A DNA stretch of 64,000 bases. It comes from Escherichia phage nomo. The translations under genes and the position numbers were made by a program. Below are positions 6,482-62,245 of the stretch, piece after piece. Where the stretch lies: the sequence record MN850578.1, one strand, 5' to 3'. The stretch's first letter is position 1. Each line of letters opens with the position of its first letter. The notes below the pieces were generated by a model. The model saw only the letters and a program-made list of their open reading frames with translations, had not been told where the DNA came from and did not search any database.

Positions 6482-6509
6482 GCCCTGCCCGAAAGGGTGG
6501 GGCATTTTT
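6482..6509 (+). terminator. rho-independent terminator candidate
   Basis: GC stem with GAAA loop (gccctgcccgaaagggtggggc) followed by atttttg, just after SSB-like gene stop. Confidence 0.5.
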
Positions 6510-6528: not shown

Positions 6529-6945
6529 ATGACATTAGAAGATATCATTGTTAAGCCTGAGAACTATGACCAATACAACCTGTCAACTCAATCTGTAGAC
6601 CTTGGATGCGCCACGGTCAGTGCGTGGCTGGTTAACGGAAAAGAGCTGGATAAATGCTTAGAAGCTCACATGTCTATTAACAAGTTTCTGGATGAAAATA
6701 CTCACTGGCTTGAGGGTGCAGGCGTATATGCTTCATGGTTGGATAGTATGGGATTCGACTACCAATCTGAAGAGGGGTGGTGGAGCTATTTAGCTATCTG
6801 TCCAGAGACGCTACAATGCTTCATGAAATATTCTGAAGATTTGGAGTACCGGGCGGTGGTTGATAGTGCTATTGCCCGTTATAGCCGTAAACCTTTTTCC
6901 CACGACATTAAAACTGTGGAAGAATTTGTTGAAGTTTTCTGTTGA
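6529..6945 (+). CDS. hypothetical protein (138 aa)
   Basis: ORF with RBS taaggag upstream. Confidence 0.5.
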   Translation: MTLEDIIVKPENYDQYNLSTQSVDLGCATVSAWLVNGKELDKCLEAHMSINKFLDENTHWLEGAGVYASWLDSMGFDYQSEEGWWSYLAICPETLQCFMKYSEDLEYRAVVDSAIARYSRKPFSHDIKTVEEFVEVFC

Positions 6946-7041
6946 CACAGATTGAAAGGTGTGCAATTATAACTTCATAGAACGGGAGGACGTGATGAAC
7001 GAAGAAAACTGGGATGTATAACTAACAGGAGGCCACTGCCC

Positions 7042-7239
7042 ATGATTTATCGAATCCGTGTAAGAGAAGATGCACCAGGCTGTTACTTTGACTGGCGTGG
7101 GTGGTGGTTTATCCACCCAATGGATGGACTCACAGATAGAATGCTGGATGCTGCCCTTTACACAGATACCGACATAGAATATAATCTCTATCTGAAGGAC
7201 GGTATAGATAACGGCCTGTTTGAAGCAATTCCTGTGTAA
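7042..7239 (+). CDS. hypothetical protein (65 aa)
   Basis: ORF with RBS caggagg upstream. Confidence 0.4.
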   Translation: MIYRIRVREDAPGCYFDWRGWWFIHPMDGLTDRMLDAALYTDTDIEYNLYLKDGIDNGLFEAIPV

Positions 7240-7307: not shown

Positions 7308-7733
7308 ATGATCTATGAAATGCCAAAACTGATTCGTGACGATGCCCAAAACGCTCACACCATTATTATGGGCAAACGCATGGATATTATTTGTCATAAA
7401 GATTTCTGGGAAGGAAGTTACTTCACAGAGTATTTTGGTAAACTGGACAATGGTCTGCTGATCCAGTTCTACACCGATGCGGAAAACAACATTCCCTGGG
7501 AGTTCGAAACTGAAGATGTCCATAAACTTTTCACCTTCCTCGGTATTAAGGTTAAGGCCAAGTTTGAAGAAGGTGAGTGCGACGATTGTGGATTTTATGA
7601 GGTAACAGATTTCTACCTTCCTAGCGGTAAGAACCTTTACTATGAAAGCCACTTCGGTAACTCCAATATGCCACAGTGCTGGACTGAGTTTTTTGAAATT
7701 GCGGAAGAGGAGCTGGCTTACCGTGATTATTGA
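7308..7733 (+). CDS. hypothetical protein (141 aa)
   Basis: ORF with RBS caggag upstream. Confidence 0.5.
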   Translation: MIYEMPKLIRDDAQNAHTIIMGKRMDIICHKDFWEGSYFTEYFGKLDNGLLIQFYTDAENNIPWEFETEDVHKLFTFLGIKVKAKFEEGECDDCGFYEVTDFYLPSGKNLYYESHFGNSNMPQCWTEFFEIAEEELAYRDY

Positions 7734-8181
7734 TACTGTAGAGGGGGATTTAATCTCCCTTTTTAAGAGCGGTGCTGGTCACCTGATCCACGGTTGTAAC
7801 TGCTTCCACACAATGGGCAAGGGTATAGCAAAACAGATTGCCCGTGAGTTTCCTCAAGCACTGTCAGCCGACAAAGAGACTAGATACGGTTGCCTAAGTA
7901 AACTGGGTGCGTTCTCCCGATGGGAGCACTTATCTCCGATAGGTATTGTCTACGGAATCAATCTATATACCCAGTTCTACCCAGGACCTAATGCTGAGTA
8001 TTTCTCAATCCTGAAAGGCTTTGAGCTAGTCAATGAAGTATTCAGCGGATCGACTTTACCATTCTACATCCCTAAGATCGGGTGCGGCATAGGCGGTTTG
8101 AAGTGGGAACACGTAGAGGACGTTATTAACCTTGCCACTTTCGACATAGATATTGTCGTGGTGGAGTACAAAAAGTGTTGA
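7723..8181 (+). CDS. macro-domain protein (ADP-ribose binding / processing); start codon uncertain (GTG 7723, or ATG 7642 with 92-nt overlap)
   Basis: Translation contains GHLIHGCNCFHTMGKGIAKQI, matching the conserved macro-domain core; RBS gaagaggag precedes GTG. Confidence 0.6.
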   Translation: MIIDTVEGDLISLFKSGAGHLIHGCNCFHTMGKGIAKQIAREFPQALSADKETRYGCLSKLGAFSRWEHLSPIGIVYGINLYTQFYPGPNAEYFSILKGFELVNEVFSGSTLPFYIPKIGCGIGGLKWEHVEDVINLATFDIDIVVVEYKKC

Positions 8182-8631: not shown

Positions 8632-8659
8632 TTGACATCTGAAAACTGCAGTGTATAAT
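8632..8659 (+). promoter_or_regulatory. sigma70-type promoter (TTGACA-16-TATAAT)
   Basis: ttgaca 8632-8637 and tataat 8654-8659, upstream of ORF 8691. Confidence 0.6.
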
Positions 8660-12586: not shown

Positions 12587-12665
12587 TTGACAAGCTAACT
12601 TAAATCGATATAATAAGCACATAAACGGGAAAACTTCCCAGAACACACAAAAGGAGAAAAACACC

Positions 12666-21006: not shown

Positions 21007-21025
21007 TACAACAAGATGAACGGTC

Positions 21026-21050
21026 AGGGGCTTAAAGCCCCTTTCTTTTT
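21026..21050 (+). terminator. rho-independent terminator ending the + strand gene block
   Basis: Hairpin aggggcttaaagcccct followed by ttcttttt. Confidence 0.65.
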
Positions 21051-21059
21051 GTCTTCTCT

Positions 21060-23500
21060 TTTCCTACCATAAACGGCCCTACCTGGCAAGTGGAATAATT
21101 GACGAGCCATCAATCCCACACACTGTACAAATATACATGGAAAATAACTATTGCATAATTTTTCATTGTGTGGTAGCAAGGCCATTTTTACACGTTTTTC
21201 CTTCCAAAATTGCACGTAATGCAGCATTTGCACAAAATTTAACCTGATGCATATCTTCAATAGCTTGTCAACAACTAAAAATCTTTATAAGTCATACACT
21301 TACATAACTACAAAAACGTTTTCTACGTGAAAAATCGAGTATAACTATAGCCGCCAGATCTCAGAATTTACGTACGCTCGCCATTCTATAGCCTGCTAAG
21401 CATTTATTCCAACCATAGAATAACTGAATAGTCAATACCTGCATAAAATAATTATTCGTGTAAACTGCATAACATAAATCGGCCCAGGTGTCAACATTTT
21501 TCGTAAACAGTCTGGAATTGTCACGTTAGGTTACCATAAGTAGAGAAATCTTTAGTCGTCTAATGTTTACTGTACGTTACTATATTAACTGAAATCATTA
21601 GATGACTAATAGAAAGATAAGAAATAATTAACAATACAATTATTTTATCTGTAACAATAAGGCAACTATGCAAACGAATGGCATGGCGCGACGGAGTCGC
21701 GACATAATATAAAAGCAGTAACCATCACCCCCGTGATAGTTTGTCTGCAAACTATTAATCAGATCATAGTTGCCTTGTATTTAGTTAATCATGACATAAC
21801 AAGCAAGGCAACTATAGATCTGCTAATAGTTGCCCTGCTTTTATATTATGTCATGCTAATTATAATCAGTGCGATTATTGTCATGTATAATTATTGTCAT
21901 GCAAACGAATGGCATGGCTGATTATCGGTGTGTAAACAGTCAATCATGTAAATGGTTAGCATGTGAACAATCAGGAATGTAAACAATCCAGTGTGTAAAC
22001 TAATAGGTGTGTAAAAGTGTCATGTTGTGTCAGTTAGGTCACATTATGTCAGACAAGTTTTTCTCCTCTTTGTCAAGTGCTGCATGAAAAATTTACAAGC
22101 TTGTATGGTAGCATTTTTGCGGCCCTGTTTACATTCAGGAGTGTATGTATAATCCTTGTTGTGTGGGCGTTTAGACGTCTGGACGGTCAGAAGTCTGCAG
22201 GTCAATATCTAATCTATTGGCTGCTAACTATATCCCCCACAAATAATAAGAAATATAATTGTTATGTGCGTAAACAGTAACCCATGTTATCAATCCCTGT
22301 ATGTATCGCCAGTTGTGCGCATAATGGGTATTATGTTAAATTGCCCGTAATGATAACTATTCTCACAATGATAGGTATTCTCATTCACCCCCACAAGATA
22401 GGTTGCAAATGTTGTGCCACTGTGTGAACGGCCTCACCTATTAATTTGCCTCACTGCCTCGATATTTGAGAATTGTTATAAGAATGAGAAGTATTCCCAT
22501 TCCGTCCGCCTGGCAGCACTCCAGTCGCTACGGCTCCTGACAGGGCAGCACTCCTGTAGGTCAGGTCAAAATCGTGGTAGAACTGGACCTGTTCGGATAT
22601 TTCTGGCTGACTCTTCAGGTCTGTGTGGGAAAAGCCAACCCCTCCGGCGGGGCAGGGGATATCTGCAGGAAAATTGCAGGTCAATTAAAAATTTACGTGG
22701 TGTATGAAGCGCTCTTCAGGCAAGGCATGTATTAGAGGATGAAACCCTCTTCAGGCAATGATATTTGTGGGTGGGATATTTGCTGGAAAGCCAGATATGA
22801 CGGGACTCCCGGCGGGGCAGGGGTAGTACAGACAGGGAAAATATGAGGATGTAATTGGGGAAATTGATCAGACAGGTAGAGTATGGAATATGTTACAGGT
22901 ATGTTAAATATGGAGGTTGAATATCTGTAGGATTTGTGTGTAAAATCAAAGACTTAAGGGGTGTTGTGGTATTTTCTATAAATAATTCAAGTTTAATAGG
23001 CAATATTTGTCTCTATCCGCTTTGTGTGGTAAACAGATTCAGATGAAATTGGTTTACAAGTGTATACATAATATACAAATTAAAGATACAAGAAACCCCC
23101 CTCCCCCCTCGGCTACCATTCACCTTTTCCTCTGACTGGTACTTAAACACTTATTCAGACTCTTCAGGTTATCACCCATATATCATATGGCAGTGACTGG
23201 TGTCCTCCGGCCCCTCTTTCGTCACCCGTCCGCTTCGCCATGCTAATGCCATAGCCAATGGTTCGGTTGTTCACCCTGTTCACTCAGGTGTATCTCCATA
23301 CCCCTTCAAACCGAAGAGAACAGAAAACCCGAATTACTCGGTAAAAGAAAAGAGAAGAACTTAATTTTATCAGGATAGGCAAGAATGTCAAGGCATGACT
23401 GCTCACTAAACAAGCAAACAGTCATGTGTGGAAGGTAAGTGATTGTGGTGGTGGGAAATTTAGTTGAAAGATGTGTTATAGGTGCGCTTCCAGCACTTTA
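21060..23500. other. 2.5-kb non-coding convergence region with several repeat families
   Basis: No convincing ORF; repeats gcaaacgaatggcatggc (x2), tgtgtaaac-like array 21928-22016, ctcttcagg...ccggcggggcagggg units 22606-22840. Confidence 0.55.
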
Positions 23501-28259: not shown

Positions 28260-28523
28260 TCACCCAACAACCATAGCTTCAAAAGGAGTCATGAACGAAT
28301 AAACGGCATCATCATCTGCTTCAGGGAATGCTCCCAAAGACTTCATATCTGAGCCCTTGACAAATACAAGGTTTTGATCAAAGGCTTCTTGGGGGTCAAT
28401 CCGATACATATTTCGTAAAATATCGCTTACCTCCTCATCAAGAGGTGAGTATGCTGTGCACGTTTTTCCGATCAAGCTTTGAGAATCAGGGTATCCACCT
28501 GAAGTTTTAAAATAAACAATCAT
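28260..28523 (-). CDS. hypothetical protein (87 aa)
   Basis: ORF in array. Confidence 0.4.
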   Translation of the reverse strand: MIVYFKTSGGYPDSQSLIGKTCTAYSPLDEEVSDILRNMYRIDPQEAFDQNLVFVKGSDMKSLGAFPEADDDAVYSFMTPFEAMVVG

Positions 28524-28614
28524 ATAGTATCACCTCTGGTAAGAGATTGGGACTCCTTTCCCACAAATAATTACAAATCTTCCTTAGCGAGGAAGTATGC
28601 TAATCCAAGCAGGA

Positions 28615-28884
28615 TTATTCCTCTACAATCTCATACACATCAGGAGTTACAATCAACTCTTCTCCGTTACCCGGTGCAACAAACACCACCAAACCTTCAG
28701 GTGTGTGCTTTTTAGCCATCTCGATAACATCTTCTCGCAGAGCTGGCTCCATCAGATCAAAACCTTCACCTAGGGCATCACGAACCACCTTCATATAGTC
28801 CACTGGTTGTGCTTCAACAATCATGCCTTCAACCAGTCCACAGTTTTTGTCTGCCAGCTCAGTTTTGAATAATTTAATTTTCAT
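28615..28884 (-). CDS. small acidic protein, paralog family A (89 aa)
   Basis: Starts MKIKLFK, ends PDVYEIVEE. Confidence 0.45.
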   Translation of the reverse strand: MKIKLFKTELADKNCGLVEGMIVEAQPVDYMKVVRDALGEGFDLMEPALREDVIEMAKKHTPEGLVVFVAPGNGEELIVTPDVYEIVEE

Positions 28885-29021
28885 TTAGAGGTCTCCTCAA
28901 TTATTTGATATTAATAGCCGTAACCTAACACATTAACTACAACTGCGATTGCAAACATAATTTCAAAGCATGCAATCTCTACATTTGGGACTAATTTCTT
29001 AATCACACCCATTGTAGCACC

Positions 29022-29342
29022 TCATTCTCCAAAGTCAATCTTTACTTTGCCTTTCCCCTTACCTTTCTTTCCACCGCATTTAGCCAGCTGACGTGCTGCG
29101 ACATCTACCATACGGTCAGTTGCCTCGTAAGCATCACTGACTTTAGCCTTGGCAATAACTTCTTTTCCAGAATTGTCAAAAATGAACGCCATAACTTCCT
29201 GGTGATCATTTTCAACTTTTACACTCACACGTGCATAGTTAACAGAGGGATGTAAACGCTCCAGCTTGGACATTTTGCGGGAAATAAAAGATACCATACC
29301 TTCTGTGATTTCTACATTGTTGCCAGTGATTTCAATTTGCAT
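29022..29342 (-). CDS. ribosome hibernation factor homolog (RaiA/YfiA/HPF family)
   Basis: Translation begins MQIEITGNNVEITEG, nearly identical to the conserved N-terminus of bacterial RaiA/HPF (MQLNITGNNVEITEA), with further conserved positions. Confidence 0.75.
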   Translation of the reverse strand: MQIEITGNNVEITEGMVSFISRKMSKLERLHPSVNYARVSVKVENDHQEVMAFIFDNSGKEVIAKAKVSDAYEATDRMVDVAARQLAKCGGKKGKGKGKVKIDFGE

Positions 29343-58392: not shown

Positions 58393-59106
58393 TTAAATAT
58401 ACTCTGTTACATCCTTGAAGCTCGAAGGCTTCATAATCTTACCTTTACTGTCAAGGAATATAATAACTTTATTACCGTTGTAGAACTCCTCTTTAGCAAC
58501 GAAACCTTCGTAGCGACCACCAAAACGACGCTCAAGATCTTCAATCTCTAACTCTATGAGCAATTCAGTAGACATATCTGCACTGGCACCGTGAGAATAT
58601 CGTAGATGGTTGATCCGTGCAAACTTGCTGTCATTAGATTTGAGAACCTTCCGCATCATCCCACACACATCGCCGCGAAGCTGGAACAGCAAAGCTGTTG
58701 ACAACTCCGCTAAGCGGTAAGCTGACGCTCTTTGCTTGGATGTGTTTTTCGCAGCGATCAGTGTATCATAGAACTCACCGATCTTGAACTTAAGACCTCG
58801 TGGATTATCAAACAGGTTTGACCACTTTTCGTGATTATCATTAACAAGATAAGCGGCATAACTTGTGACAACGTGAAGATCGCAGGCCTCTTTTAGCAGG
58901 TGATCTCCACCATCACCTTTCTCCAGCTCTTCCAAAACCTCATTGAACTCTTCCTCAATGAAGCTAAGCTGTAATTCGAATGGTGTGTATGATTTTTTCA
59001 CTTTAGCTGCCACACGGTTCCAGTTTTCCACCCAGTTGGCAGACCAAAGGTAGTTTTCAGGCTGAGACAGTTTTTCCAGGTTGTCGATCAGTTTAGTATT
59101 CAGCAT
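58393..59106 (-). CDS. MazG-like nucleotide pyrophosphohydrolase (putative)
   Basis: EEEFNEVLEELEKGD...EACDLHVV resembles MazG EExxE...D motif region. Confidence 0.4.
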   Translation of the reverse strand: MLNTKLIDNLEKLSQPENYLWSANWVENWNRVAAKVKKSYTPFELQLSFIEEEFNEVLEELEKGDGGDHLLKEACDLHVVTSYAAYLVNDNHEKWSNLFDNPRGLKFKIGEFYDTLIAAKNTSKQRASAYRLAELSTALLFQLRGDVCGMMRKVLKSNDSKFARINHLRYSHGASADMSTELLIELEIEDLERRFGGRYEGFVAKEEFYNGNKVIIFLDSKGKIMKPSSFKDVTEYI

Positions 59107-59119
59107 TAAAGGTCTCCTT

Positions 59120-59881
59120 TTAAAGTTCCATAAAGTTTTCTACGGTCTCAATGAATGTTTTATCAGAGAAAGCGTCAACCGCCCCGTTAAACCAAACCGG
59201 GATGCCGCGATCCTCGTACTGGTAAATATCACTACGTGAAATGCCATTCTCCTCTAGATGCTGTGAGTCGTATTTGTTAACGATCAGCAGTTTGGTGCCC
59301 TTATTGCAGGCAGGGAATAGCTCCCAGTTAAAATTGATAACTGTGTTGGAACACCCTACAAGGATAACCATATCATTGCTTGTAAGAGAAGTCAACAGGT
59401 CATACATGTCTGTATACTTCGGAGCTACTTCTCCGAAGAACACCACATTAGGTTTAACCCAGGTATACTTTCCTGCATCTACCTCAGAGTATCCAATGTC
59501 CTTAATGACGTCACTTCCTTCATCGTCCTCATAGACTATTTCTGGCAAATACCCGTGAACATGTAAAATATCTTCATGTTTTACACCAGCACGCTCCAGC
59601 AAATCATCTACATTGGTGGTAAGGTTGATCACACGACCAGACCAGCGGGAATACCACTCAGCGATCCGAAGATGTGCAAGGTTAGGCTCAACACCGCCTA
59701 GAGCTACACGACGTGCATTGTAAAAGTCATGCACCTTGTAGTAGTTCTTGGCAAAGGTGTGGATGTTGCACACCTCATCGATGCTGAAATTCTCCCACAT
59801 TGCAGTGCTACCAGATCGGAAAGTGGGAATACCAGATTCAGCGCTCAAACCAGCACCGGAGATAATAATCAGTCGTCGCAT
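59120..59881 (-). CDS. Sir2-like (sirtuin-fold) NAD-binding protein lacking the canonical zinc ribbon
   Basis: GAGLSAESGIPTFR matches sirtuin NAD-binding signature; no CxxC...CxxC module seen. Confidence 0.65.
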   Translation of the reverse strand: MRRLIIISGAGLSAESGIPTFRSGSTAMWENFSIDEVCNIHTFAKNYYKVHDFYNARRVALGGVEPNLAHLRIAEWYSRWSGRVINLTTNVDDLLERAGVKHEDILHVHGYLPEIVYEDDEGSDVIKDIGYSEVDAGKYTWVKPNVVFFGEVAPKYTDMYDLLTSLTSNDMVILVGCSNTVINFNWELFPACNKGTKLLIVNKYDSQHLEENGISRSDIYQYEDRGIPVWFNGAVDAFSDKTFIETVENFMEL

Positions 59882-59889
59882 AAGTGTCC

Positions 59890-60240
59890 TCAGTAGATGT
59901 TTTGTTTAATCTCTATTCCAAACTTTTTAAACGAGTCAGCTGCAAGCATGAATTTACGAGCCGCTGATGGGTTAGAAGTATGCACGAAAATCTTCACGTT
60001 GTCAACTACAGGGGGCTTACCAAATACAAATTTTTCCTCCAACATAGATAGGCAATCGTACCCTTCGAACAACTCTCCAAGGTCGTTGTCCATGTGCCAC
60101 TCAGAAACGCGTCTGTAGAGCTTTCCCCTATCGTTAATAAAATCTATAAACTCGGAGGAATTCTTTAGCCAAATAGCGTCGGGGAGCCCATAATTTGACG
60201 GATCTCTCAAGTCATCCAGCCACACAATCAACTTCTTCAT
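59890..60240 (-). CDS. hypothetical protein (116 aa)
   Basis: ORF between Sir2-like and ligase-like genes; ATGA overlap. Confidence 0.4.
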   Translation of the reverse strand: MKKLIVWLDDLRDPSNYGLPDAIWLKNSSEFIDFINDRGKLYRRVSEWHMDNDLGELFEGYDCLSMLEEKFVFGKPPVVDNVKIFVHTSNPSAARKFMLAADSFKKFGIEIKQNIY

Positions 60241-61172
60241 TGCATATAGTTCTCGTTGTGGAAATAGTAATCAAGTATCTCACGGCGTTCCTGCTCCAGG
60301 AGGCAGTTCCACACATCTTCTGTGTAATTGTTACGAATGAAGTTTACCATGCCGTAAAACTCTTCGTCAACACGTTTAAAGATATCATCATCCCAAATCT
60401 TCCAAGCTTTACCCCTCATTACGGCCTTCCGTGCCAGGTAGTATGGAGACTTGATCTTCAGCTGCAGGTCATAAGGGTAGTAAGGCTTACGGATCATATA
60501 CCCTTCGCCCCTTGTTTCTGCGGCTAATTCTTTTGCATAGCTGAACGGGATTTCACGCACAGTGTGAGGACGTTTTGCACCAAGGTATTTGGCAATCCCA
60601 TCTAAAGCTGCTTCTGGTAGCATTATTCCAGAATCATTATATCTGCAACCTATCAAATATGCGCCATGGTCTTCTTGAACAATATGCGGATCTGAAGGGT
60701 GACAAATTTCAAACATGAATGTCATGTTTTCATTGCCCATAACCTTCTTGATAAGATCTAAATTACCACATTGCTCTTGGATGGTTTCCTTTGCAAGGTT
60801 ACAATATGGAGAATCAAGAGACCCGGTTGTTGAGAACAATAGGTCACCTTTATGAGATGATACCACACCAAGGAATCCGTTCTTTTTCTCTACCGCAGTC
60901 ACAAGCTTATTGTCAGGCAGGTTGGTGGAGTTTTCTCCCAAGTTAAACACTTTTGTGAAGGGCCATGCCACAACATTTCCTTCATTACCTACAACAATGC
61001 CTCGGCACTCCAGTAAACGAGGGGACAAATGCCATAAATTGTTGTAAAATACTTTTCTAGCATATTTATAGATCTTTAACCCGAGATCTGGGTAATACCT
61101 ACTGGTTACAAGACCTTTGTCAACCAGGTCGTCTGCATTAAAATACTTCATTATACGTTCCTCATTTGTCAT
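60237..61172 (-). CDS. RNA-ligase-like nucleotidyltransferase (putative RNA repair ligase)
   Basis: Motif I-like EKKNG, motif IV-like EGYMIR, motif V-like LKIK; distinct from the DNA ligase at 56483. Confidence 0.5.
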   Translation of the reverse strand: MTNEERIMKYFNADDLVDKGLVTSRYYPDLGLKIYKYARKVFYNNLWHLSPRLLECRGIVVGNEGNVVAWPFTKVFNLGENSTNLPDNKLVTAVEKKNGFLGVVSSHKGDLLFSTTGSLDSPYCNLAKETIQEQCGNLDLIKKVMGNENMTFMFEICHPSDPHIVQEDHGAYLIGCRYNDSGIMLPEAALDGIAKYLGAKRPHTVREIPFSYAKELAAETRGEGYMIRKPYYPYDLQLKIKSPYYLARKAVMRGKAWKIWDDDIFKRVDEEFYGMVNFIRNNYTEDVWNCLLEQERREILDYYFHNENYMQ

Positions 61173-61272
61173 TTTGTCAGTCTATCCTGCCACACAAATA
61201 ACCTAGTGTCAACACTTGAAATTAACAAAACAGTTAGGTATACTACCGTTGAAATTAAAACGGAGGGTCACT

Positions 61273-61683
61273 ATGTCTAAAATGCTATATATCGTGCGTG
61301 GTCTACCAGGGTCTGGCAAATCAACACTGGCGAATGCGCTATCTTTAGAGGGTCTGTATCCACATTTTGAGAACGACATGTTCTGGTATGACGATGACGG
61401 CAATTACAACTGGGATGCAAGTAAAGTAACACTCGCAGCAAAATGGTGCAAAGATAACGTAGAAGATATGATGCGTATGGGATACGACCGTATCGTGGTA
61501 AGTAATACGTTTACAAAAGAAAAACATGTGCAGGAATATGTTGACATGGCAATCAGTCATGGGTATAGTTATACCGTGATCGTGGTTGAAAACCGCCACG
61601 GTAATAAAAGCATTCATGATGTTCCAGACAAGGTTGTGGATCGTATGGAACGCCAGCTTAAAAACTGCATTAAACTTAAATGA
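61273..61683 (+). CDS. P-loop kinase (polynucleotide kinase-like)
   Basis: Walker A GLPGSGKST near N-terminus; RBS ggaggg upstream of ATG 61273; small kinase-only protein. Confidence 0.55.
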   Translation: MSKMLYIVRGLPGSGKSTLANALSLEGLYPHFENDMFWYDDDGNYNWDASKVTLAAKWCKDNVEDMMRMGYDRIVVSNTFTKEKHVQEYVDMAISHGYSYTVIVVENRHGNKSIHDVPDKVVDRMERQLKNCIKLK

Positions 61684-61690
61684 GGAATGT

Positions 61691-62245
61691 ATGAAATACT
61701 TTGTAACAAGCGACACACACTTTCTCCACCAGCGGGTCATGGAGTTTGATTCATGTCAAAAACACAGATCTCAGTATGATCACAATCTTGACAGTATGAA
61801 TGCTGGAATCATCGCCGAGTGGAACTCTGTTGTGTCACCTGCAGACACTGTGTTCCACTTGGGAGATATTGCGTGCACTAATGATAAGAATATCAACAAC
61901 TTACTTCCAGATATTCTAAATATGTTGAACGGACATATTATTCTTGTTCGTGGCAACCATGACACAAGGACGACTGTCAGAATTATGAAAGAGTTCGGTC
62001 ATGAGGTTGTAGATTATTACGAGCTTCGCCACAACAAGAATTTGATCTGTATGAGCCATTACCAGTTTGCAAAGTGGAACAGAAAGCCTCACGGATCAGT
62101 CCAACTGTTCGGTCATGCTCACGGAACCACACAACAGTTGTTTGGCAGGCAGCTTGATGTCGGTTGGGATGTGTGGGGGAGACTCTTACCATTAGAAGAG
62201 GCATACCGTATTGCAATGAGTTTTGATATTGACAGCAGGGAGTAA
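61691..62245 (+). CDS. calcineurin-like metallophosphoesterase
   Basis: SDTHF, HLGDIA, RGNHD motifs of metallophosphoesterases; RBS gagga upstream of ATG 61691. Confidence 0.6.
   Translation: MKYFVTSDTHFLHQRVMEFDSCQKHRSQYDHNLDSMNAGIIAEWNSVVSPADTVFHLGDIACTNDKNINNLLPDILNMLNGHIILVRGNHDTRTTVRIMKEFGHEVVDYYELRHNKNLICMSHYQFAKWNRKPHGSVQLFGHAHGTTQQLFGRQLDVGWDVWGRLLPLEEAYRIAMSFDIDSRE

What the first reader, a model, noticed from the sequence alone, without database searches (positions are those of the whole stretch)
7723..8181. Macro-domain protein in the early region
Macro domains bind or hydrolyse ADP-ribose derivatives. In phages they are plausible counter-measures against ADP-ribosylating toxins or defence systems, or partners of NAD-consuming enzymes; this genome also encodes a Sir2-like protein.
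Basis: partly seen in the sequence, partly recalled or inferred. Interest (0 to 1): 0.5.

Follow-up and report, generated by a model that had tools for sequence, protein, structure and literature searches.

The report
Phage macrodomain, likely anti-DarT factor AdfM
This gene of an rV5-like E. coli phage encodes a small ADP-ribose-removing (macrodomain) enzyme related to phage T4's Tk.4/AdfM, which T4 needs to escape the bacterial DarTG2 defence that ADP-ribosylates DNA, so it is a real but ordinary member of a recently explained family.

Summary
Window 7723-8181 (+) is a 152-aa gene with a GTG start, a GAGGAG ribosome-binding site and a TGA stop. Identical coordinates are annotated "macro domain protein" or "phosphatase" in near-identical Vequintavirus (rV5-like) genomes.

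Pfam Macro passes its curated threshold. An AlphaFold2 model (pLDDT 94.7) matches the DarG, TARG1 and Poa1p macrodomains.

The protein belongs to a very large family of stand-alone phage macrodomains, found in 2,717 of 50,697 phage records. Its signature is HGCNC...MGxGIA...NxYTQ...PxIGxGxGG. A near-invariant Gln sits where DarG and TARG1 carry their catalytic Lys. That is the arrangement in Streptomyces SCO6735, which cleaves thymidine-linked ADP-ribose from DNA.

The family includes T4 Tk.4 (39% identity over the full length, E 3e-41). A 2025 preprint showed that T4 needs tk.4 only on DarTG2-carrying hosts and renamed it AdfM.

The best explanation is therefore an early-expressed orphan antitoxin-like hydrolase that strips DarT2-made ADP-ribose from phage DNA. 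This is inferred, not tested, for this phage.

A Sir2 gene exists at 59120-59881 (-). It lies 51 kb away in an RNA-repair cluster, and T5 has that Sir2 without any such macrodomain, so a partnership is unlikely.

Verdict: new member of a known kind, low to moderate interest.

The parts
7723..8181 (+). Macrodomain gene (152 aa plus stop), an orthologue-level relative of T4 tk.4/adfM
   Evidence: ORF and sequence. Pfam Macro 28 bits against cut-off 22. PHROG_335 2e-59. 39% identity and E 3e-41 to T4 Tk.4 over the full length. AF2 pLDDT 94.7. Foldseek matches to DarG, TARG1 and Poa1p.
7789..7830 (+). Codons for H23-G-C-N26-C-F-H-T-M31-G-K33-G34-I-A36: first ADP-ribose-binding loop, with the conserved Asn and His
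   Evidence: H23 222/227, N26 226/227, G34 226/227 and A36 224/227 conserved in the family. These align with SCO6735 H24, N27 and K34, and with the DarG Asn (N22 in T. aquaticus DarG numbering). Their roles in SCO6735 are described in PMC9411070.
7960..7974 (+). Codons for N80-L-Y82-T83-Q84: family-defining motif, with Gln84 at the position of the DarG K80 / TARG1 K84 catalytic lysine
   Evidence: Q84 is conserved in 225/227 sequences. It aligns with SCO6735 Q85 (NMIGQ) and with the Lys of FPTK in DarG and PhiKZ gp104 and of LITK in TARG1. SCO6735 Q85A and Q85E are inactive.
8071..8097 (+). Codons for P117-K-I-G120-C-G122-I-G-G125: second glycine-rich (phosphate-binding) loop
   Evidence: P117 225/227, G120 225/227, G122 224/227 and G125 221/227 conserved. 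G122 aligns with SCO6735 G128. TARG1 D125 is replaced by Gly, and the position of the Phe in Poa1p's GIFG loop also holds Gly.
7707..7712 (+). Shine-Dalgarno-like GAGGAG, 10 nt before the GTG start
   Evidence: Read from the sequence.
7308..7733 (+). Upstream 141-aa ORF (PHROG_8157, unknown function) overlapping the macrodomain start by 11 nt. Probably co-transcribed and translationally coupled, but not a conserved partner.
   Evidence: ORF. PHROG_8157 1.9e-82. Homologues occur only in vequintaviruses and some Krischvirus-type phages, 176 records. No similarity to T4 Vs.
7157..7185 (+). Sigma-70-like promoter candidate (TTTACA-17-TATAAT, 11/12), the nearest strong candidate upstream of the 7308-8181 gene pair
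   Evidence: Consensus scan only. Function is not shown.
6482..6503 (+). Intrinsic-terminator-like hairpin closing the preceding transcription unit
   Evidence: Scan. A terminator is annotated at the equivalent place in phage HdK5.

Best explanation
The gene encodes a stand-alone macrodomain ADP-ribosyl hydrolase of the phage Tk.4/AdfM family, an 'orphan antitoxin'. It is probably made early from host-type promoters. Its proposed job is to remove the ADP-ribose that the host DarT2 toxin (of the DarTG2 toxin-antitoxin defence) attaches to thymidines in single-stranded phage DNA, so that replication can continue. Catalysis would not use the lysine of DarG or TARG1. It would use the SCO6735-type arrangement instead: a buried Gln (Q84), held by Asn26, positions the distal ribose for water-mediated cleavage. 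Shown here: the gene, the fold, family membership, the conserved active-site pattern and homology to T4 Tk.4. Taken from the literature: T4 tk.4 is needed only on DarTG2 hosts; SCO6735 (Gln type) and PhiKZ AdfM (Lys type) hydrolyse DarT2-made dT-ADP-ribose. Inferred: that this vequintavirus protein has the same substrate and the same role.
For: Full-length homology to T4 Tk.4: 39% identity, E 3e-41. Both proteins fall in PHROG_335. They share the motifs HGCNCFHTMG, NLYTQ and PxIGxGIG, and they cluster together in an NJ tree, apart from DarG/PhiKZ gp104, TARG1, SCO6735/BT1257 and Poa1p. Tk.4 finds only this ORF in the window. In the HIDEN-SEQ preprint, tk.4 was the single significant hit on a DarTG2 host. 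A clean knockout sensitised T4, the gene was non-essential on K-12, and it was renamed adfM. T4 lacking adfA and adfN stays DarTG2-resistant, which implies a further factor (PMC11825919). DarG is the best NCBIfam match (2.4e-12), the only PADLOC match (2.9e-13) and the best match among solved-structure sequences (M. tuberculosis DarG macrodomain 5m3i; 4.6e-16 with the family profile). Q84, N26 and H23 are near-invariant and match SCO6735 Q85, N27 and H24. In SCO6735, Q85A and N27S abolish cleavage of dT-ADPr DNA (PMC9411070). Correlation: T5 has no homologue and is DarTG2-sensitive. The host is E. coli, the species in which the DarTG2 experiments were done. The promoter-rich early-type gene block fits the need to act before replication. 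Near-neutral to acidic pI (5.9) is the same as T4 Tk.4, so it is no argument against a DNA substrate.
Against: There is no experiment on any vequintavirus protein. The Bas54 (V5-like) transposon library was not challenged with DarTG2. The T4 result is genetic and comes from a preprint, and enzymatic removal of ADP-ribose by Tk.4 itself has not been shown. Identity to Tk.4 is only 39%, and macrodomain substrate range is hard to read from sequence (PMC9503650). K33, which aligns with the DNA-positioning K34 of SCO6735, is Ala, Ser or Gly in most family members, including T4. The SCO6735 DNA-binding details therefore do not transfer directly. SCO6735 also removes Glu-linked protein ADP-ribose, so protein or small-molecule substrates remain possible.
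Confidence: 0.65

Rival explanations
1. It is a housekeeping partner of the phage's own NAD-consuming RNA-repair pathway. In this reading it is a Poa1p-like ADP-ribose-1''-phosphate phosphatase, or an O-acetyl-ADP-ribose deacetylase, that clears by-products of the Sir2 / RNA ligase cluster.
For: A Sir2 gene with RNA ligase, kinase and metallophosphoesterase neighbours is present at 58393-62245. It has been proposed to act like KptA and generate ADPr>P (PMC9503650). The N-terminal motif HxCNC...GxGIA is nearly identical to Poa1p (HSCNCNGSWGGGIA), including the His and Ser/Thr that were mutated (H23A, S30A) in deposited Poa1p structures. RefSeq and PHROG label the family 'phosphatase'.
Against: The two loci are 51 kb apart, on opposite strands and in different transcription blocks. 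The published analysis states that this Sir2 clade is not coupled to an adjacent Macro gene. T5 has the Sir2 orthologue (57% identity) but no macrodomain of this family. The macrodomain is most abundant in T4-like phages, whereas the Sir2 is most abundant in T5-like phages. The position of the Phe in Poa1p's GIFG loop (F152 by the PDB entry titles) holds Gly here, and Poa1p has Ser where Q84 sits. The 'phosphatase' label is a historical A1pp-motif name, not a tested activity.
Confidence: 0.12
2. It reverses ADP-ribosylation of proteins or RNA (made by host defence ARTs or by phage ARTs), or it degrades or sequesters ADP-ribose-derived immune signals such as Thoeris His-ADPR or gcADPR, rather than acting on DNA.
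For: The TARG1/SCO6735 clade removes Glu/Asp-linked ADP-ribose from proteins. A comparative study argued that phage Macro domains mostly target soluble ADPr derivatives (PMC9503650). Macro domains bind His-ADPR in type II Thoeris.
Against: The only phenotype known for a family member is DarTG2-specific. The TARG1 Lys/Asp dyad is absent. No ART gene is linked to this locus. There is no direct evidence for any signal-molecule substrate.
Confidence: 0.13
3. It is a non-catalytic ADP-ribose reader or a stoichiometric DarT binder: it has lost the catalytic lysine and works only by binding.
For: The DarG/TARG1 lysine is replaced by Gln. Catalytically dead SCO6735 Q85A still inhibits DarT in vitro through interaction.
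Against: Gln at this position is near-invariant (225/227), along with N26 and H23. That points to selection for a specific active site. In SCO6735 the same Gln is required for catalysis, and the wild-type enzyme has high turnover.
Confidence: 0.07

Closest known systems
T4 Tk.4 = AdfM (anti-DarT factor Macrodomain), HIDEN-SEQ preprint 10.1101/2025.11.20.689424
   Same: Stand-alone ~150-aa phage macrodomain in an E. coli myovirus. 39% identity over the full length. Same PHROG_335. Same HGCNCFHTMG, NLYTQ and PxIGxGIG motifs, including Gln in place of the DarG lysine. Same pI (5.9)..
   Different: Different phage lineage and gene neighbourhood: T4 has vs-tk.4-tk.3, whereas here the gene sits among vequintavirus-specific small ORFs. 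K33 here is Ser in T4, and G125 here is Lys in T4. The anti-DarTG2 role is tested only for T4.
SCO6735 of Streptomyces coelicolor (PDB 5E3B) and BT1257 (2FG1/2AFC)
   Same: Orphan macrodomains of the TARG1/ALC1-like class, with Gln at the DarG-K80 position plus the His and Asn of the first loop. SCO6735 cleaves DarT-made dT-ADP-ribose from DNA and protects against DarT.
   Different: A separate clade (NMIGQ against NLYTQ, WGKG against MGxG, and a 5-6-residue insertion after the Gln). Profile E-value is only 8.8e-15 and identity about 22-26%. SCO6735 is basic (pI 9.7 against 5.9). It is cellular, not viral.
Chimallivirus AdfM (PhiKZ gp104), PMC13309987
   Same: A phage-encoded stand-alone macrodomain that counters DarTG2. 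It has been shown to remove DarT2 ADP-ribose from DNA, and it bears the same name 'AdfM'.
   Different: It is DarG-type (FPTK lysine, VNVVG first loop). It is only 20% identical to the window protein and groups with the DarG macrodomains in the tree. It is imported into the phage nucleus. It represents an independent acquisition.
DarG2 antitoxin macrodomain (T. aquaticus 5M31/5M3E, M. tuberculosis 5M3I)
   Same: Best match among solved structures, by sequence (5m3i) and by fold (5m31). Same conserved Asn and GxGG loop, and presumably the same substrate.
   Different: DarG has the catalytic Lys80, a C-terminal DarT-binding domain and an adjacent darT gene. None of these is present here. The NCBIfam DarG score is 46.8 against a cut-off of 250.
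Poa1p (yeast ADP-ribose-1''-phosphate phosphatase, 6LFQ) and human TARG1 (4J5S)
   Same: Same macrodomain class. The Poa1p first loop HSCNC...GGGIA is very similar. TM-scores are 0.68-0.79.
   Different: Poa1p has Ser at the Q84 position and a GIFG loop with Phe. TARG1 uses the K84/D125 dyad. Both are absent here.

Membership tests
Macro domain (Pfam PF01661) | Score at or above Pfam's gathering threshold | tested here: met
   28.0 bits against 22, E 2.2e-06. Only residues 22-52 are aligned by the generic model. T4 Tk.4 behaves similarly at 27.7 bits.
Macro domain (Pfam PF01661) | Three-layer alpha/beta/alpha macro fold with the two glycine-rich ADP-ribose-binding loops | tested here: met
   AF2 model pLDDT 94.7. 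Foldseek probability 1.0 to 136 PDB chains at E<=1e-3; the top-ranked hits are macrodomains. The loops MGKGIA and IGCGIGG align with those of DarG, TARG1 and SCO6735.
Tk.4 / AdfM(T4) family (Gln-type phage macrodomains, PHROG_335) | Full-length homology to T4 Tk.4 and the same profile family | tested here: met
   39% identity, E 3e-41, residues 1-150. PHROG_335 scores 2e-59 for the window protein and 1.3e-65 for T4. The two cluster together in the NJ tree.
Tk.4 / AdfM(T4) family (Gln-type phage macrodomains, PHROG_335) | Signature H-G-[CA]-N-C ... M-G-x-G-[IVL]-A ... N-x-Y-T-Q ... P-x-I-G-x-G | tested here: met
   All positions are present. Conservation is 95-99% across 227 family sequences and the signature is also present in T4 Tk.4.
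Tk.4 / AdfM(T4) family (Gln-type phage macrodomains, PHROG_335) | Required for phage growth on DarTG2-expressing hosts, dispensable otherwise | not testable with these tools
   Shown only for T4. The Bas54 library was not tested on DarTG2.
Tk.4 / AdfM(T4) family (Gln-type phage macrodomains, PHROG_335) | Hydrolysis of thymidine-linked ADP-ribose on ssDNA | not testable with these tools
   Biochemistry exists for SCO6735 and PhiKZ AdfM, but not for any Tk.4-type protein.
DarG2 antitoxin (NCBIfam NF048014) | Score at or above the curated cut-off (250 bits) | tested here: not met
   46.8 bits, covering only model positions 3-141 of 338.
DarG2 antitoxin (NCBIfam NF048014) | Catalytic lysine (T. 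aquaticus DarG K80, FPTK motif) | tested here: not met
   Gln84 occupies the position.
DarG2 antitoxin (NCBIfam NF048014) | C-terminal DarT-binding domain and an adjacent darT toxin gene | tested here: not met
   The protein is 152 aa and consists of the macrodomain only. The neighbours are small phage ORFs with no annotated ART or darT gene.
SCO6735-type macrodomain | Gln at the DarG-K80 position, stabilising Asn, neighbouring His, and no Lys/Asp dyad | tested here: met
   Q84, N26 and H23 align with Q85, N27 and H24. The functional data are in PMC9411070.
SCO6735-type macrodomain | Close sequence kinship (same clade as SCO6735/BT1257: NMIGQ motif, WGKG loop, insertion after the Gln) | tested here: not met
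   Separate clade in the tree. Single-sequence E 7.7e-5 and profile E 8.8e-15, no closer than to DarG or TARG1.
Poa1p-like ADP-ribose-1''-phosphate phosphatase | Poa1p residues mutated in the deposited structures (H23, S30, F152) | tested here: inconclusive
   H23 is conserved and S30 is Thr. The position of the Phe in Poa1p's GIFG loop (taken here to be F152 from the PDB entry titles, not counted independently) holds Gly. Phosphatase activity cannot be tested here.
TARG1 | Catalytic Lys84 / Asp125 dyad | tested here: not met
   Gln84 and Gly124 occupy the two positions.

The most novel reading that the evidence does not exclude
The Tk.4-type macrodomains form a distinct, lysine-free catalytic lineage with a Gln-centred, SCO6735-like mechanism. 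In Sir2-bearing phages such as this one, that lineage could be bifunctional: it would erase DarT2 marks on DNA and also process ADP-ribose-phosphate by-products of the phage's own sirtuin-based RNA repair, or other ADP-ribose immune signals. That would link two NAD-dependent modules of the genome.
Probability: 0.1. Interest if true: 0.55.

Novelty: new member of a known kind. Interest (0 to 1): 0.3.

Why it matters
If the inference holds, rV5-like phages, which are common phage-therapy candidates against E. coli, carry a built-in counter to DarTG2. The same family sits in about 5% of sequenced phage genomes (2,717 of 50,697 records). That would make thymidine ADP-ribosylation of DNA a widely countered defence. 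The family also offers a natural series for studying lysine-independent macrodomain catalysis. For this particular gene the finding is confirmatory, not surprising. The domain is already annotated in GenBank relatives, and the function was assigned to the T4 homologue in 2025.

Tried and rejected
1. Longer ORF from the ATG at 7642. Rejected: the extra 27 aa overlap the upstream gene, have no counterpart in any homologue, and the annotated GTG start has a good RBS.

2. Membership in DarG proper. Rejected on score, on the missing lysine, on the missing C-terminal domain and on the absence of darT.

3. Functional coupling with Sir2. Checked by location, by the published neighbourhood analysis, by the phage-wide distributions of both genes and by a whole-genome scan of T5 (Sir2 present, macrodomain absent). 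Judged unlikely.

4. Upstream ORF 7308-7733 as a conserved partner, or as a homologue of T4 Vs (which precedes tk.4). There is no similarity to Vs (E 34), and the ORF is confined to vequintaviruses and a few Krischvirus-type phages.

5. Cellular homologues next to a darT. Of the two contigs examined, one is a bacterial MAG in which the macrodomain is followed by an Exo_endo_phos protein. The other is a phage-like replication module. Neither has a DarT, so this was uninformative.

6. Literature search for direct data on Vequintavirinae and DarTG2. Nothing beyond the untested Bas54 library.

7. Searching the HIDEN-SEQ supplements for a Bas54 macrodomain entry. The Bas54 orthologue's locus tag was not identified, so no entry for it could be located.

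8. Low pI as an argument against a DNA substrate. Rejected, because T4 Tk.4 and PhiKZ AdfM are equally acidic.

Full report
**Source of the window**

The window comes from a Vequintavirus (rV5-like) myovirus of E. coli. The 3 kb around the finding is 99.9% identical to phages naswa, magaca and pangalan. It is at least 90% identical in all 119 matching phage records, 115 of which hold at least 80% of the stretch. The first 25 kb is 95-98% identical to the best-matching vequintavirus genomes, such as nimi and APECc02.

**The observation**

An ORF ends at 8181 on the + strand. The mechanical ORF list starts it at an ATG at 7642.
- It is preceded by GAGGAG at 7707-7712.
- It overlaps the stop of the upstream ORF (7308-7733) by 11 nt.
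- It is conserved, with the TGA stop, in six relatives.
- It gives the N-terminus MIIDTVEGD, which matches the family consensus and T4 Tk.4 (MIVKYIKGD).

GenBank relatives annotate exactly this 459-nt CDS as 'macro domain protein' (HdK5), 'phosphatase' (APECc02) or 'Macro domain, Poa1p_like family ... T4 GC 1557' (rV5_ev168).

**Is it a macrodomain?**

Yes.
- Pfam Macro scores 28.0 bits against a gathering threshold of 22, though the generic model aligns only residues 22-52.
- PHROG_335 covers the whole protein at 2e-59.
- The best or only matches in NCBIfam and PADLOC are to the DarG antitoxin macrodomain (2.4e-12 and 2.9e-13).
- Sequence search of the PDB finds the M. tuberculosis DarG macrodomain (5M3I), yeast Poa1p (6LF*), BT1257 (2FG1/2AFC), SCO6735 (5E3B) and human TARG1.
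- An AlphaFold2 model built on 38 homologues has mean pLDDT 94.7.
- Foldseek places the model next to T. aquaticus DarG, TARG1 and Poa1p (probability 1.0, TM 0.68-0.79).
- Among predicted viral structures the top hit is Tk.4 of the T4-like Acinetobacter phage 133.

**The family**

HMMER against 1.84 billion cluster representatives finds 4,381 relatives at E<=1e-3. Nearly all of the 150 best are stand-alone proteins of about 150 aa. tblastn finds a homologue in 2,717 of 50,697 phage records: T4-like phages (where it is tk.4, next to vs), phages of roughly 85-95 kb and roughly 155 kb infecting enterobacteria and Pseudomonas, and others.

Alignment of 227 members gives a sharp signature:
- H23-G-[CA]-N26-C
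- M31-G-x-G34-[IVL]-A36
- N80-x-Y82-T83-Q84
- P117-x-I-G120-x-G122-x-x-G125

**The active site**

The position that holds the catalytic lysine in DarG (K80, FPTK) and TARG1 (K84, LITK) holds a near-invariant glutamine here (225 of 227). TARG1's partner D125 is a glycine.

The same replacement defines Streptomyces coelicolor SCO6735. In that enzyme Q85 is essential and N27 locks it in place. The enzyme removes DarT-made ADP-ribose from thymidine in DNA, as well as Glu-linked ADP-ribose from protein, and it protects cells from DarT (PMC9411070).

H23, N26 and Q84 of the window protein align with SCO6735 H24, N27 and Q85. K33 aligns with K34 but is not conserved in the family.

In an NJ tree the phage family is nevertheless its own clade. 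It is separate from SCO6735/BT1257, from DarG plus PhiKZ gp104, from TARG1 and from Poa1p.

**What the family does**

The decisive lead is in the literature. A November 2025 preprint (10.1101/2025.11.20.689424) ran a T4 transposon library on a DarTG2-expressing host.
- tk.4 was the single significant hit.
- A clean knockout became DarTG2-sensitive.
- tk.4 is dispensable on plain K-12, with 45 of 46 TA sites hit.
- The authors named it adfM, anti-DarT factor Macrodomain.

This explains an earlier observation that T4 lacking adfA and adfN is still DarTG2-resistant (PMC11825919).

I fetched T4 tk.4 and compared it with the window protein.
- Identity is 39% over the full length, E 3e-41.
- Both fall in the same PHROG.
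- All signature motifs are shared, including NLYTQ.
- Tk.4 finds only this ORF in the window.

A second, independent 'AdfM' is PhiKZ gp104 of nucleus-forming phages. It was shown biochemically to strip DarT2 ADP-ribose from DNA (PMC13309987). It is a DarG-type, lysine-bearing macrodomain only 20% identical to the window protein.

**Most likely mechanism**

An early-made orphan hydrolase removes thymidine-linked ADP-ribose from phage ssDNA and so neutralises DarT2. It would use a Gln-centred, water-mediated mechanism like that of SCO6735. It may also inhibit DarT by binding, since the catalytically dead SCO6735 Q85A mutant still inhibits DarT in vitro.

The basis of each step:
- Shown here: gene, fold, family membership and active-site pattern.
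- Taken from papers: the T4 phenotype and the SCO6735 and PhiKZ biochemistry.
- Inferred: transfer of that role to this vequintavirus protein.

I put this at about 0.65.

**Expression context**

The gene lies in the + strand block that follows the DNA polymerase, among small ORFs of unknown function. A terminator-like hairpin at 6482-6503 closes the preceding unit. Sigma-70-like sites at 6942-6970 and 7157-7185 precede the 7308-8181 gene pair. The 4.5-13 kb region holds 31 such sites against 15.2 +/- 3.5 in shuffles, including perfect 12/12 matches. This fits host-polymerase early transcription but is only a consensus scan.

**The Sir2 idea**

The genome does encode a sirtuin at 59120-59881 (-), Pfam SIR2 5.5e-27. 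It is flanked by a T4-type RNA ligase, an AAA_33 kinase and a calcineurin-like phosphoesterase. A MazG-like pyrophosphohydrolase is annotated at the adjacent position in the relative APECc02. Iyer et al. describe this same neighbourhood for phage V5, propose that it is a KptA-like RNA-repair module, and note that it is not coupled to a Macro gene (PMC9503650).

Three points argue against a partnership with the macrodomain:
- The cluster is 51 kb from the macrodomain and on the other strand.
- Sir2 homologues occur in 1,006 phage records dominated by T5-like phages, whereas the macrodomain is most abundant in T4-like and other myoviruses.
- A scan of the complete T5 genome found the Sir2 orthologue (57% identity, E 2e-98) but no macrodomain of this family (tblastn E>3; family HMM no hit at E<=10).

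T5 is also the standard DarTG2-sensitive phage.

A Poa1p-like phosphatase or deacetylase role downstream of Sir2 cannot be excluded biochemically. The first loop resembles Poa1p closely. It is nevertheless the weaker reading.

**Other checks**

- The upstream overlapping ORF is not a conserved partner and is unrelated to T4 Vs.
- Two non-vequintavirus contigs carrying family members show no adjacent darT.
- No paper in the searched library tests a vequintavirus against DarTG2. A Bas54 library exists but was not run on that system.

**Verdict**

The gene is already annotated as a macrodomain in public records, and its family received a function in 2025. It is a new, untested member of a known kind, with modest added interest from the lysine-free active site shared with SCO6735.

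Noticed in passing
window 21010-23470: An ORF-poor stretch of about 2.4 kb lies between the + strand gene block and the - strand block. It carries iteron-like repeats: ATAGTTGCC in direct and inverted copies at 21652-21852, GTGTGTAAAC four times (21928, 21991, 22266, 22936), an exact 20-mer at 21668/21899 and an exact 15-mer at 22644/22809. It appears to correspond to the ~2 kb intergenic region of the V5-like phage Bas54 that tolerated no transposon insertions. It may be a replication origin or a regulatory region.
   Followed up: partly
window 58393-62245: Sir2 (59120-59881, -) sits with a T4-type RNA ligase (60237-61172, -), an AAA_33 kinase (61216-61683, +), a calcineurin-like phosphoesterase (61586-62245, +) and a MazG-like gene annotated in the relative APECc02 (58393-59106, -; no Pfam hit at E<=1e-3 here). 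This is the sirtuin-centred putative RNA-repair module described for phage V5. T5 has a 57% identical Sir2.
   Followed up: partly
public records matching window 1-25000 (e.g. MG065635.1, MG065647.1, MG065662.1): 16-25 GenBank records named 'Campylobacter phage', with host Campylobacter jejuni, are 94-96% identical to E. coli vequintaviruses across this region. They are probably mislabelled or contaminant assemblies.
   Followed up: no
window 8632-8659 and 12587-12614 (+): Perfect 12/12 sigma-70 consensus promoters (TTGACA-16-TATAAT), plus several 10-11/12 sites, all on the + strand in the small-gene block. The density is twice that of shuffled sequence.
   Followed up: no
window about 28500-29300 (-), by homology to APECc02 gp082/gp083: The close relative APECc02 annotates two small genes as 'sigma 54 modulation factor' and 'ribosome-associated translation inhibitor RaiA', that is, hibernation-factor-like proteins. 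This was not verified here.
   Followed up: no
residue 33 of the macrodomain (window 7819-7821): This phage has Lys at the MG-K-GIA position, as do DarG and SCO6735 (where K34 helps position DNA). Most family members, including 83%-identical vequintavirus relatives and T4 Tk.4, have Ala, Ser or Gly; only 10 of 227 have Lys.
   Followed up: no
locus L010 5001-6696 (Pseudomonadota MAG JBCAZO010000030.1): A cellular member of the family sits in a chromosomal context immediately upstream of a 406-aa Exo_endo_phos (EEP nuclease/phosphatase) gene, with no DarT nearby.
   Followed up: no
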